A stretch of 64,000 nt of DNA from a bacterium (GTDB lineage: Bacteria; Bacillota; DTU030; JBMNJR01). Both the position numbers and the translations under genes were made by a program. The notes beneath the pieces were generated by a model. The model was not told the DNA's origin, ran no database searches, and saw nothing but the letters and a program-made list of their open reading frames with translations. Location: contig JBMNJR010000008.1 in NCBI GenBank assembly GCA_050951765.1, positions 54,795-118,794 of the forward strand. The letters run 5' to 3'. Shown one piece after another: positions 60,321 to 60,677 of the stretch (positions are counted from its first letter, which is position 1; each line of letters begins with the position of its first letter).

Positions 60321-60677
60321 ATGGGAGAAAAATTATTTTTTTATTGTGTCAATAACTGAACAACCTGCAGTAAAGCGAAAGCGTGGCTTTCGCAGGCAGG
60401 CGTCCCATTTACAGACCGCAACCTAATTAAGAACCCACCTACCGAAGAAGAACTTTATCACTTGACCAAGTTAGCTCAATTGTCCCTTAAAGACTTAGTT
60501 AACACCAAGAGCCAGACATATAAGAAGCTAAATCTAGACATATCCGGATTAGAAGATGATGAAATCATAAGGCTAATTCAAACCAACCCAAGATTATTGG
60601 TACGTCCTTTGTTATTTGATGAGCAGCATTTAATCATAGGATTTAAAGAGGATGCATATCAAAAATTCCTTGGCTAA
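60321..60677 (+). CDS. Spx/ArsC-family thioredoxin-fold protein with in-frame TGA (predicted selenocysteine, UxxC motif)
   Basis: RBS GAGGTGA plus ATG 60321; single frame reads MGEKLFFYCVNN[TGA]TTCSKAKAWL...; the TGA at 60357..60359 aligns with the first Cys of the Spx CxxC motif; hairpin follows. Confidence 0.65.
60364..60396 (+). promoter_or_regulatory. SECIS-like hairpin downstream of the UGA
   Basis: Stem GCGAAAGC/GCTTTCGC with GUG apical loop, starting 16 nt after the TGA. Confidence 0.5.

What the first reader, a model, noticed from the sequence alone, without database searches (positions are those of the whole stretch)
60321..60677. Spx/ArsC-family gene with an in-frame TGA at the CxxC position: predicted UxxC selenoprotein
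The ORF track splits this locus into 60162..60359 and 60462..60677, but they share one frame and are separated only by a single TGA at 60357..60359. Translating through gives a 118-residue protein that aligns along its whole length with Spx/ArsC-family proteins, with the TGA exactly at the first Cys of the redox motif (FYCVNN-U-TTCSKAKAWL versus Spx SPSCTSCRKAKAWL). A stable hairpin with a G/U-containing apical loop sits 16 nt downstream, consistent with a bacterial SECIS. A good RBS precedes the ATG at 60321.
Basis: partly seen in the sequence, partly recalled or inferred. Interest (0 to 1): 0.8.

Follow-up and report, generated by a model that had tools for sequence, protein, structure and literature searches.

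The report
Selenocysteine Spx/ArsC-like redox protein gene
The in-frame TGA at 60357 is almost certainly read as selenocysteine in a small thioredoxin-fold Spx/ArsC-like redox protein that sits in a peroxide-defence operon beside a selenocysteine peroxiredoxin; this kind of selenoprotein is already catalogued, so it is a solid but not surprising find.

Summary
ATG 60321 to TAA 60677 encodes a 118-residue ArsC/Spx-family protein with one in-frame TGA (60357-60359) at the first Cys of the CxxC motif.

- **Conservation:** the same TGA occurs in 75 distinct complete orthologous genes from anaerobic Bacillota and a few other phyla, down to about 30% identity. Cys-form homologs align C with U.
- **Hairpin:** a hairpin 15 nt downstream (60375-60393, GUG loop) is maintained by synonymous-codon choice only in the TGA forms.
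- **Second selenoprotein:** PrxU, about 1 kb downstream in the same operon (TGA 61321), shows the organism decodes Sec.
- **Rivals excluded:** general TGA reassignment, sequencing error and pseudogene.
- **Family placement:** it passes the Spx/MgsR subfamily cutoff. It lacks Spx G52, the RNA-polymerase alpha-CTD contact surface and the C-terminal tail. It fails the catalogued ArsC selenoprotein model NF041106 and the arsenate reductase model.
- **Likely role:** a PrxU gene lacking a resolving Cys lies immediately upstream in 18 of 66 assessable loci. The most likely role is therefore a UxxC selenol/thiol oxidoreductase that recycles PrxU (inferred, about 50%).
- **Novelty:** UxxC ArsC-like selenoproteins have been listed since 2005-2008, so this is a new member of a known kind. 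Sec machinery could not be checked.

The parts
59700..59728 (+). Sigma-70-like promoter candidate upstream of the four-gene cluster (TTGACA-17-TATATT)
   Evidence: 11 of 12 consensus matches. This is a consensus match only, and the number of such sites in the region is not above the shuffled expectation. An IS21-family element ends just upstream.
60137..60298 (+). Rubredoxin gene, first gene of the cluster
   Evidence: PF00301 E=1.5e-25. Its stop lies 22 nt before the ATG of the selenoprotein gene.
60310..60315 (+). Ribosome-binding site GAGGTG, 5 nt before ATG 60321
   Evidence: Read directly from the sequence.
60321..60677 (+). Coding sequence of the 118-residue ArsC/Spx-superfamily selenoprotein (C9-x3-U13-x2-C16; R95-P96)
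   Evidence: AF2 model of ortholog P0003: pLDDT 97, best PDB match Spx 3GFK_A at TM 0.85/0.88.
60357..60359 (+). UGA decoded as selenocysteine (U13), equivalent to Spx Cys10
   Evidence: The TGA is conserved at this codon in 75 distinct complete orthologs. Cys is found in homologs at this site. Gene callers mis-called it as W in P0001, P0003, P0005 and P0008.
60364..60400 (+). SECIS-like element. Lower stem 60364-60368 / 60396-60400; upper stem 60375-60382 / 60386-60393; apical loop GUG 60383-60385
   Evidence: fold. (synonymous-codon selection for the upper stem in Sec forms only); upper stem 80.7% paired across 81 sequences with two compensatory pairs, while the lower stem is only 38.5% paired in register and so is not a family-level feature.
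60713..61045 (+). Small protein with an N-terminal rubrerythrin-type rubredoxin-like Cys4 domain
   Evidence: PF21349 E=6.4e-11. Gene call from L003. RBS GGGAGG at 60700-60705.
61072..61794 (+). PrxU selenoperoxiredoxin gene (alternative start at ATG 61184); it lacks a C-terminal resolving Cys
   Evidence: NF040737 PrxU equivalog, 393.6 bits against a cutoff of 270..
61321..61323 (+). UGA (Sec) at the peroxidatic position of PrxU (FTFV-U-ATE)
   Evidence: TGA is at the same site in all 21 PrxU genes linked to the ArsC/Spx-like gene.
61334..61351 (+). Candidate SECIS hairpin of prxU (UUUCAGC-AGUU-GCUGAAA), starting 10 nt after the UGA
   Evidence: Read from the sequence and picked up as an inverted repeat. 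It is not the MFE fold of the 64-nt segment, and its conservation was not tested.

Best explanation
The locus is one gene, not two. The UGA at 60357-60359 is recoded as selenocysteine by the bacterial SelB/tRNA-Sec pathway. A coding-region hairpin 15 nt downstream (60375-60393, small GUG apical loop) serves as the SECIS element.

The product is a 118-residue thioredoxin-fold protein of the ArsC/Spx superfamily with a U13-x-x-C16 redox centre, plus a further conserved Cys four residues upstream of U. It is co-transcribed with rubredoxin, a rubrerythrin-like Cys4 protein and the selenoperoxiredoxin PrxU.

Most likely mechanism (inferred, about 50% on its own): it acts as a selenol/thiol-disulfide oxidoreductase. 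Its Sec attacks the oxidised (selenenic acid) form of PrxU, which has no resolving Cys of its own. C16 then resolves the mixed intermediate into an intramolecular Se-S bond, which the cell's reducing systems reduce again.

Shown: the conserved TGA, the Sec/Cys pairing, selection on the hairpin, the fold, and the gene linkage. Inferred: SelB dependence, the redox partner, and the direction of electron flow.
For: 1. **TGA conservation.** The TGA is at the identical codon in 75 distinct complete orthologous genes, each with the normal downstream length. They come from Syntrophomonadaceae, Peptococcaceae, Desulfotomaculaceae, Desulfitobacteriaceae, Tissierellia, Latescibacteria and Dehalococcoidia. 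About 2 chance matches were expected for the pattern, by my own estimate from its specificity and the database size.
2. **Same TGA in four independent samples** of the same species.
3. **Signature among HMMER hits:** Cys-form homologs, four W-miscalled entries and many N-truncated fragments.
4. **Hairpin selection, Sec genes versus 93 Cys-form genes with the same peptide motif**:
   - Leu codon CTT in 68/75 Sec genes against a 16.5% background in the same genes.
   - Ser codon TCN in 56/56, although AGY makes up 48% of Ser codons elsewhere.
   - Contiguous stem 6.76 bp against 4.94 bp after synonymous randomisation in Sec genes; 4.85 against 4.65 bp in Cys genes.
   - 30-nt core z-score -1.48 against -0.23 (MWU p=1e-12).
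5. **Two alternative hairpin registers** use different synonymous codons for the same KAKAWL peptide. Compensatory changes occur at two upper-stem pairs.
6. **The adjacent gene is a curated-cutoff PrxU** with TGA at its active site.
7. **PrxU linkage.** PrxU lies immediately upstream on the same strand in 18 of 66 assessable loci, always with TGA. AhpC-TSA is the only recurrent redox neighbour, in 20 of 68 upstream genes.
8. **All 19 linked PrxU proteins lack the C-terminal resolving Cys**.
9. **TGA is otherwise a stop.** It ends 3 of 30 genes, and there are no in-frame TGAs in 11,055 Pfam-supported codons.
10. **Published criteria for a bacterial selenoprotein are all met** (PMC1088965).
Against: - No selA, selB, selD or tRNA-Sec was found in the window or in any fetched locus, and the rest of the genome could not be searched.
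- The hairpin in the single sequence is not significant.
- A 45-nt MFE test did not separate Sec from Cys forms.
- The classical covariation score is no better than some slid controls, and the window's lower stem is not conserved in register.
- The Cys control set is a different, higher-GC subfamily.
- One close Cys-form homolog (P0006) still has a weaker version of the hairpin.
- PrxU linkage is present in only about a quarter to a third of loci.
- In this window the two genes are separated by another gene, and the order is reversed relative to the common arrangement.
- No biochemical data exist for any member.
Confidence: 0.8

Rival explanations
1. It is a true Spx-type regulator that carries Sec in its redox switch. 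The oxidised U13-C16 form binds the RNA polymerase alpha C-terminal domain and promoter DNA, and it activates the oxidative-stress operon in which it sits, possibly after being oxidised by PrxU.
For: - The best sequence and structure matches are to Spx (E about 6e-23; TM 0.85/0.88, rmsd 1.6 A).
- It passes the NCBIfam Spx/MgsR subfamily cutoff (100.6 against 75.05), as do 8 of 10 clade representatives.
- The UxxC and R-P-(L/I) motifs are invariant, and several DNA-contact positions stay basic (K18 in 75/75; K/R at the Spx R60 position in 51/75).
- Fur-family genes are next to 3 loci.
Against: - Features that PMC8501982 names as defining or essential are missing: G52 is kept in 5/75 (S in the window); among alpha-CTD contacts, L76 is kept in 0/75 (acidic instead), Y80 in 3/75 and L46 in 1/75.
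- The proteins end at about Spx residue 115 and lack the C-terminal tail.
- All three Spx-specific NCBIfam models (two equivalogs and one Spx subfamily model) score below cutoff.
- The RP motif is general to the ArsC superfamily (P is invariant in the diverse alignment A3).
- Other ArsC-family folds match nearly as well (YffB at TM 0.79/0.84).
- No selenoprotein transcription factor was found in the reviews consulted.
Confidence: 0.15
2. The TGA is a genuine stop. The locus is then a pseudogene or two unrelated short ORFs, or the TGA is an assembly or sequencing error for TGT/TGC.
For: - Standard gene callers split or truncate the gene.
- TGA does function as a stop elsewhere in the window.
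- Two orthologs (L021, L057) are disrupted further downstream.
Against: - The TGA is kept at the same codon in 75 diverged genes with intact frames on both sides, with a start codon and RBS upstream.
- It is identical in four independent samples.
- Codon-level selection for a downstream hairpin is seen only in the TGA forms.
- A 12-residue N-terminal peptide and a start-less C-terminal fragment make no biological sense for a fold whose active site spans the junction.
Confidence: 0.03
3. The organism reads TGA as tryptophan or glycine (genetic code 4 or 25), as implied by the database entries that show W at this position.
For: P0001, P0003, P0005 and P0008 were deposited with W at the site.
Against: - Thirty Pfam-supported genes (11,055 codons) are intact under code 11 with no in-frame TGA, and three of them end in TGA.
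- W at the nucleophilic position of a CxxC centre is chemically meaningless, whereas homologs have Cys there.
- The host lineages are Bacillota and similar groups, not code-4 or code-25 groups.
Confidence: 0.01
4. It is a Sec-dependent arsenate reductase of the glutaredoxin-coupled ArsC type.
For: - It is a member of Pfam ArsC.
- A UxxS 'arsenate reductase' selenoprotein family exists (PMC2398784 and PMC13188914).
Against: - It scores 43.5 bits against the arsC equivalog TIGR00014, whose cutoff is 106.
- The motif is UxxC, a dithiol-type centre, not the single-Cys CxxS/UxxS type.
- No ars genes (arsB/acr3, arsR, arsA) appear among the annotated neighbours in the window or in the 137 flanking genes scanned.
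Confidence: 0.03

Closest known systems
UxxC 'Arsenate reductase 2' (cd03032) selenoprotein family of the Global Ocean Sampling selenoproteome (Zhang & Gladyshev 2008, PMC2398784), together with the earlier 'ArsC-like' and 'arsenate reductase' selenoproteins (PMC1088965, PMC1794560)
   Same: - An ArsC-superfamily thioredoxin-fold protein with Sec as the first residue of a UxxC motif and Cys-form homologs.
- Predicted from a conserved in-frame TGA plus a downstream stem-loop.
- From memory, not verified with the tools: cd03032 is the CDD model for the Spx subfamily. If so, that would make it the same subfamily.
   Different: - That set was marine and described only as a table entry.
- The present clade is from anaerobic Bacillota and allies.
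- It has an extra conserved Cys (C-x3-U-x2-C) and recurrent operon linkage to PrxU, neither of which is mentioned in the papers read.
- Direct sequence comparison with the GOS sequences was not possible.
NCBIfam NF041106 'ArsC family (seleno)protein' (ArsC_rel_Se_1), listed in the 2026 selenoproteome review PMC13188914 as 'Arsenate reductase-like protein, UxxC'
   Same: Same superfamily, the same UxxC motif, and the same selenoprotein status.
   Different: The window protein scores 32.7 bits and ten clade representatives score at most 40 bits, against a cutoff of 85. It is a different clade that currently has no selenoprotein-aware model.
Bacillus subtilis Spx (PDB 1Z3E, 3GFK, 7F75), a redox-sensing RNA-polymerase-binding regulator
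   Same: - Closest solved structure and sequence: 31% identity and TM 0.85/0.88.
- The CxxC motif is at the same position.
- The RP(I/L) motif is present.
- It passes the Spx/MgsR subfamily model TIGR01617.
   Different: - Sec replaces Cys10.
- G52 and most alpha-CTD contact residues are not conserved, and the C-terminal tail is absent.
- It is encoded inside an enzyme operon.
- It scores below the cutoffs of the Spx-specific models.
Dedicated peroxiredoxin reductant partners encoded next to their peroxiredoxin, such as AhpC with AhpF or AhpD (comparison from general knowledge, not tested here)
   Same: A small CxxC-type redox protein is encoded immediately next to, and co-oriented with, a peroxiredoxin that cannot recycle itself. 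This is the arrangement seen for prxU followed by the UxxC gene in 18 of 66 loci.
   Different: - It has a different fold family (ArsC/Spx rather than AhpF or AhpD).
- Both partners carry Sec.
- No biochemical evidence exists.

Membership tests
Bacterial selenoprotein gene (operational criteria of PMC1088965) | In-frame TGA conserved in at least two different sequences | tested here: met
   75 distinct complete genes have TGA at the same codon.
Bacterial selenoprotein gene (operational criteria of PMC1088965) | At least two Cys-containing homologs aligning Cys with the TGA | tested here: met
   51 CxxC homologs among the HMMER hits. The close ones, P0006, P0009 and P0022, share the FYC...C-xx-C architecture.
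Bacterial selenoprotein gene (operational criteria of PMC1088965) | Stem-loop immediately 3' of the UGA with a small apical loop containing G | tested here: met
   An 8-bp stem with a GUG loop and a 15-nt spacer. It is maintained by synonymous-codon selection in Sec forms but not in Cys forms. No Rfam family matched.
Bacterial selenoprotein gene | Sec machinery (selA, selB, selD, tRNA-Sec) in the same genome | not testable with these tools
   None was found in the 64-kb window, and the rest of the genome is unavailable. Indirect support comes from the adjacent curated-cutoff PrxU with TGA.
Bacterial selenoprotein gene | Selenium actually incorporated in the protein | not testable with these tools
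   This needs 75Se labelling or mass spectrometry.
ArsC superfamily (Pfam PF03960) | Full-length match above the gathering score | tested here: met
   75.8 bits against 24, covering profile positions 1-79 of 79. The AF2 model of ortholog P0003 has the ArsC/Spx fold.
Spx/MgsR subfamily (NCBIfam TIGR01617) | Score above the curated cutoff | tested here: met
   100.6 bits against 75.05. 8 of 10 clade representatives also pass.
Spx transcriptional regulator (NF002459 subfamily model; NF009885 and NF009210 equivalogs) | Score above the curated cutoff | tested here: not met
   103 against 123, 85.9 against 152, and 81.3 against 159.
Spx transcriptional regulator (features named in PMC8501982) | N-terminal CXXC redox switch | tested here: met
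   Present as U13-T-T-C16, aligned with C10/C13.
Spx transcriptional regulator (features named in PMC8501982) | Gly52, essential for alpha-CTD binding | tested here: not met
   S in the window; G in only 5 of 75 orthologs.
Spx transcriptional regulator (features named in PMC8501982) | RPI motif | tested here: met
   R95-P96 are invariant, followed by L, I or V. However, the motif is general to the ArsC superfamily.
Spx transcriptional regulator (features named in PMC8501982) | Hydrophobic and H-bond surface contacting alpha-CTD (L46, V71, M74, L76, L79, E72, Q77, Y80) | tested here: not met
   L46 is kept in 1/75, L76 in 0/75 (E or D instead), Y80 in 3/75 and L79 in 8/75. Only the M74 and V71 positions stay hydrophobic.
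Spx transcriptional regulator | C-terminal extension beyond about residue 115 | tested here: not met
   The window protein ends at the position aligned with Spx P115, and the orthologs end within a few residues of that point.
Spx transcriptional regulator | Binding to RNA polymerase and effect on transcription | not testable with these tools
   This needs a binding assay or genetics.
ArsC family (seleno)protein NF041106 | Score above the curated cutoff (85) | tested here: not met
   32.7 bits for the window protein and at most 40.1 bits for ten clade representatives.
Glutaredoxin-coupled arsenate reductase ArsC (TIGR00014) | Score above the cutoff (106), and ars operon context | tested here: not met
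   43.5 bits. No ars genes were found among the neighbours.
PrxU selenoperoxiredoxin (NF040737), for the neighbouring gene | Score above the equivalog cutoff, and Sec at the peroxidatic site | tested here: met
   393.6 bits against 270. TGA 61321-61323 lies in FTFV-U-ATE.

The most novel reading that the evidence does not exclude
The protein is a selenocysteine-based Spx-like transcription regulator that receives oxidising equivalents from its operon partner PrxU. This would be a bacterial peroxidase-to-regulator redox relay comparable to yeast Orp1-Yap1. PrxU would sense peroxide at selenol speed and pass the oxidation to the U13-C16 switch, which would then act on RNA polymerase through a surface that has co-evolved away from the B. 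subtilis G52 interface. It would be the first selenoprotein transcription factor.
Probability: 0.1. Interest if true: 0.8.

Novelty: new member of a known kind. Interest (0 to 1): 0.4.

Why it matters
**Annotation.** At least 75 species carry this gene, yet it is routinely annotated as a truncated fragment or with a false Trp. No curated selenoprotein model covers the clade, so selenoproteome counts for Syntrophomonadaceae, Peptococcaceae and their relatives are underestimates.

**Biology.** The recurrent prxU/UxxC-gene pair, together with the lack of a resolving Cys in PrxU, gives a concrete and testable candidate for the physiological reductant of the selenoperoxiredoxin. It points to an all-selenium peroxide-detoxifying couple in strict anaerobes.

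**RNA.** The two alternative hairpin registers encoded over the same KAKAWL peptide are a clean natural example of how a SECIS element is fitted into a constrained coding sequence.

Tried and rejected
- **Peptide-pattern scan of reference genomes** with the protein found nothing. It was replaced by a codon-level DNA pattern.
- **Word-indexed homolog search** gave only 4 hits. The exhaustive HMMER search was needed.
- **Rfam gathering scan:** no SECIS or other family at the locus.
- **Whole-segment MFE statistics:** the 64-nt fold is not significant. The 45-nt MFE and z-score do not separate Sec from Cys forms. This measure was abandoned in favour of a position-specific stem measure and codon-bias tests.
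- **Classical covariation:** only modest. The score is not above the slid controls, and the window's lower stem is not conserved in register.
- **tRNA-Sec search** in the window and in 51 loci: none found.
- **Pfam scan of 20 further window ORFs, plus precomputed annotations:** no SelA, SelB or SelD.
The closest ortholog is only 56% identical.
- **Single-sequence AF2** was unusable at pLDDT 41. It was redone with an alignment. Model coordinates are not exposed, so the Cys9-Sec13 distance could not be measured.
- **Context of close Cys-form homologs** (P0006, P0009) was too short or uninformative. No Prx was seen.
- **Other TGA-bridged ORF pairs in the window** (12 besides the two reported) lack any homology context and were dismissed as chance.
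- **Downstream neighbours** (Macro, EVE domains) recur but look like lineage synteny without a redox theme.
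Full report
**1. Observation.** ATG 60321 is preceded by GAGGTG (60310-60315). The frame runs to TAA 60675-60677 with a single in-frame TGA at 60357-60359. Read-through gives a 118-residue protein, MGEKLFFYCVNN-U-TTCSKAKAWL...

With Cys in place of U it matches Pfam ArsC end to end (E=3.3e-21). It aligns with Spx crystal-structure sequences over residues 7-117, placing U13 on Spx Cys10 and C16 on Cys13.

The downstream hairpin is real: an 8-bp G+C-rich upper stem (60375-60382 / 60386-60393), a GUG loop, and a 15-nt spacer after the UGA. 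Taken alone, neither feature is beyond chance. The fold has z=-1.16. The window contains 14 same-frame ORF pairs bridged by one TGA, of which only two have any homology support. The verdict therefore depends on comparative evidence.

**2. The TGA is conserved.** The word-indexed protein search returned four entries. Two of them carry W exactly at the TGA position, which is the signature of a gene caller using code 4 or 25.

The DNA behind the 55%-identical P0003 and the 50%-identical P0004 shows TGA at the same codon in both (L001 1108-1110; L002 7905-7907). A codon-level pattern anchored on the peptide motif (TGA-x-T-C-x-K-x-K-A-W-L), not on the hairpin, found 83 loci in one-genome-per-species reference genomes. 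My own estimate from the pattern's specificity and the database size was about 2 chance matches.

After translation, three loci are chance or out-of-frame hits, a few are cut by contig ends, and two are disrupted. Together with the window, L001 and L002, 75 distinct complete genes remain. Each has a start codon 9-16 codons upstream and 103-113 codons downstream, ending at the normal family length.

The hosts are mainly Syntrophomonadaceae, Peptococcaceae, Desulfotomaculaceae, Desulfitobacteriaceae, Pelotomaculum, Dethiobacter and Tissierellia, plus Latescibacteria and Dehalococcoidia MAGs. The window protein is at most 56% identical to any of them. The identical TGA is also seen in four independent metagenome samples of the window's own species, which excludes a sequencing error.

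**3. Sec/Cys pairing.** An exhaustive HMMER search of 1.84 billion representatives gave three kinds of hit:
- 51 CxxC homologs, including close ones with the same N-terminal architecture (P0006 FYCVSG-C-STC, P0009, P0022);
- four W-miscalled entries;
- many N-terminally truncated fragments that begin just after the TGA.

This is the classic database footprint of a selenoprotein family.

**4. The hairpin.** A generic test failed. The 45-nt MFE and its z-score against synonymous randomisation do not separate the 75 Sec genes from 93 Cys-form genes retrieved with the same peptide pattern.

A position-specific analysis is clear:

| Measure | Sec genes (n=75) | Cys genes (n=93) |
|---|---|---|
| Leu codon in the 3' arm | CTT in 68/75, against 16.5% of Leu codons elsewhere in the same genes | at background |
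| Following Ser codon | TCN in 56/56, although AGY is 48% of the background | no Ser at this site |
| Ala codon at the stem/loop junction | GCG in 63/75, against 25% background | at background |
| Mean contiguous stem, observed vs synonymous-random | 6.76 vs 4.94 bp | 4.85 vs 4.65 bp |
| 30-nt core z-score | -1.48 | -0.23 |

The core z-scores differ with MWU p=1e-12.

The family uses two alternative registers for the same KAKAWL peptide, each with its own synonymous codons:
- GCG AAA GCG TGG CTT TCG: stem GAAAGC/GCUUUC, loop GUG.
- GCC AAG GCT TGG CTT: stem AAGCCAA/UUGGCUU, loop GGC.

Formal pair counting shows the upper stem paired in 80.7% of cells, with double-sided changes at two pairs (CG to UA in 3 sequences, GC to AU in 7). 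The covariation score is no better than some slid controls, and the window's lower stem is not conserved in register at 38.5%.

Caveats:
- The sequences are related, so the binomial p-values are inflated.
- The Cys control is a higher-GC subfamily.
- Of the two closest Cys-form homologs, one has lost the hairpin and one (P0006) keeps a weaker 6-bp version, possibly a relic.

Overall the hairpin meets the published description of a bacterial SECIS: immediately 3' of the UGA, with a small apical loop containing G (PMC1088965).

**5. Does the organism decode Sec?** No tRNA-Sec, SelA, SelB or SelD is present in the window or in 51 related loci. The rest of the genome is unavailable, so this refutation test remains open.

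Indirect support is strong. About 1 kb downstream in the same gene cluster, a peroxiredoxin has an in-frame TGA (61321-61323) exactly at the peroxidatic Cys (FTFV-U-ATE). It scores 393.6 bits against the curated PrxU model, whose cutoff is 270. PrxU is the selenoperoxiredoxin first described in Eubacterium acidaminophilum (Sohling et al. 2001, cited in PMC8533274).

General reassignment of TGA is excluded. Thirty Pfam-supported genes (11,055 codons) are intact under code 11, and three end in TGA.

**6. What kind of protein is it?**
- **Fold.** An AF2 model of ortholog P0003 built on a 97-sequence alignment is confident (pLDDT 97). It superposes best on B. subtilis Spx (3GFK_A, TM 0.85/0.88, rmsd 1.6 A), but other ArsC-family folds are nearly as close.
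- **Curated models.** NCBIfam places the protein in the Spx/MgsR subfamily (100.6 against 75.05). It is below the cutoffs of all Spx-specific models, far below the arsenate reductase equivalog (43.5 against 106), and far below the only curated ArsC-type selenoprotein model, NF041106 (32.7 against 85). Ten representatives of the Sec clade behave the same way.
- **Spx features.** The Spx cryo-EM paper names CXXC, G52 and RPI as the family hallmarks and lists the alpha-CTD contact residues (PMC8501982). In the 75 orthologs the UxxC and RP(L/I/V) motifs are invariant. G52 is kept in 5/75 (S in the window), L76 in 0/75 (acidic instead), Y80 in 3/75 and L46 in 1/75. The proteins stop at about Spx residue 115, without the C-terminal tail. 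The RP motif is general to the superfamily.

The protein therefore resembles Spx in fold and redox centre but lacks what makes Spx an RNA-polymerase-binding regulator.

A clade-specific extra feature is a Cys four residues before U (C-x3-U-x2-C) in 64/75.

**7. Context and mechanism.** In the window the gene is the second of four closely spaced co-directional genes:
- rubredoxin (60137-60298);
- the selenoprotein (60321-60677);
- a small protein with a rubrerythrin-type Cys4 domain (60713-61045);
- PrxU (61072 or 61184 to 61794).

There is no terminator-like site between them, and a promoter-like site lies at 59700-59728.

Across the orthologs, a PrxU gene lies immediately upstream on the same strand in 18 of the 66 loci with enough upstream DNA. 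All 21 linked PrxU genes have TGA at the active site. A bulk Pfam scan of 137 flanking genes shows AhpC-TSA as the only recurrent redox neighbour, in 20 of 68 upstream genes.

All 19 full-length linked PrxU proteins lack the canonical C-terminal resolving Cys. Their oxidised Sec must therefore be resolved by an external partner.

My preferred model is that the UxxC protein is that partner. U13 attacks oxidised PrxU, C16 resolves the mixed intermediate, and the resulting Se-S bond is re-reduced by cellular reductants. This step is inferred from linkage and chemistry, not shown. I give it about 50%, against about 15% for a genuine Spx-type regulator and a few per cent for the other rivals.

**8. 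Comparison with what is known.** ArsC-type selenoproteins have been catalogued since 2005:
- 'arsenate reductase', COG1393, in the Sargasso Sea (PMC1088965);
- 'ArsC-like' in genomes (PMC1794560);
- 'Arsenate reductase 2, cd03032, UxxC, 42 sequences' in GOS (PMC2398784);
- 'Arsenate reductase-like protein, UxxC', keyed to COG1393 in the 2022 review and to NF041106 in the 2026 review (PMC9312934, PMC13188914).

From memory, cd03032 is the Spx-subfamily model of CDD, which would make the GOS entry the nearest precedent. I could not verify this. None of the selenoproteome papers consulted mentions Spx, the PrxU linkage or the extra Cys.

The finding is therefore a new member (a broad, poorly annotated clade) of a known kind of selenoprotein, not a new kind.

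**9. Verdict.** Confidence that this is a genuine Sec-encoding gene for a UxxC redox protein is about 0.8-0.9. The main residual uncertainty is the unverified Sec machinery. Function is inferred. Interest is moderate (0.4). The find is useful for annotation and offers a testable PrxU-reductant hypothesis, but a specialist would not be surprised by a UxxC ArsC-like selenoprotein.

Noticed in passing
window 61072-61794 (TGA at 61321-61323; hairpin 61334-61351): A second selenoprotein gene: a PrxU-type peroxiredoxin with in-frame TGA at the peroxidatic Cys. The ORF track splits it into 61072..61323 and 61378..61794. It has no resolving Cys. Both ATG 61072 and ATG 61184 have good ribosome-binding sites.
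   Followed up: yes
window 57077-59606 (minus strand); compare L004: An IS21-family element (IstA-like 57595-59157, IstB-like 57077-57601, HTH protein 59217-59606) sits directly upstream of the rubredoxin/selenoprotein operon. It is absent from the otherwise identical locus in another metagenome sample (L004), so the insertion is polymorphic and may affect operon regulation.
   Followed up: partly
L085 7515-7546 (Vagococcus acidifermentans LMG 24798, NZ_NGKC01000006.1): A complete ortholog with the in-frame TGA and a perfect form-2 hairpin occurs in an isolate genome of the Lactobacillales, an order I would not expect (from memory) to decode Sec. Whether that genome has sel genes was not checked.
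   Followed up: no
window 60345-60347 (Cys9), and 64 of 75 orthologs: A conserved extra Cys lies four residues before the Sec, giving C-x3-U-x2-C. It is absent from Spx (T6) and could act as a third redox residue. Its 3D distance to U could not be measured because model coordinates are not exposed.
   Followed up: partly
L210 136-489 (P0006, Cys form): The closest Cys-form homolog keeps a weakened version of the SECIS-like hairpin (GAAAGC-CUG-GCUUUC, -5.4 kcal/mol). This is possibly a fossil of a recent Sec-to-Cys switch.
   Followed up: partly
alignment A4 (48 nt after the TGA in 81 sequences): Two mutually exclusive hairpin registers are encoded over the same KAKAWL peptide by different synonymous codons: GCG-AAA-GCG-TGG-CTT-TCG and GCC-AAG-GCT-TGG-CTT. 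The second goes with the W-L-D/E/Q subgroup of the family.
   Followed up: partly
window 38235-38344 (+): A TPP riboswitch (Rfam RF00059, 78 bits) lies upstream of a thiamine-related gene cluster (ThiW/ECF transporter, hydroxyethylthiazole kinase, phosphomethylpyrimidine kinase, TMP-TENI).
   Followed up: no
window, 30 Pfam-supported genes: TGA is a rare stop codon here (3 of 30 genes; TAG 14, TAA 13). None of the four genes of the selenoprotein operon ends in TGA.
   Followed up: partly
L212 5343-9421 (JGI contig Ga0534105_01757): The metagenome contig that matches the window carries several transposase genes (rve, UPF0236, ISL3-like) near the MarR/MatE genes, and its coordinates are not simply colinear with the window. 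This suggests strain-level IS-mediated rearrangement. It was not resolved.
   Followed up: no
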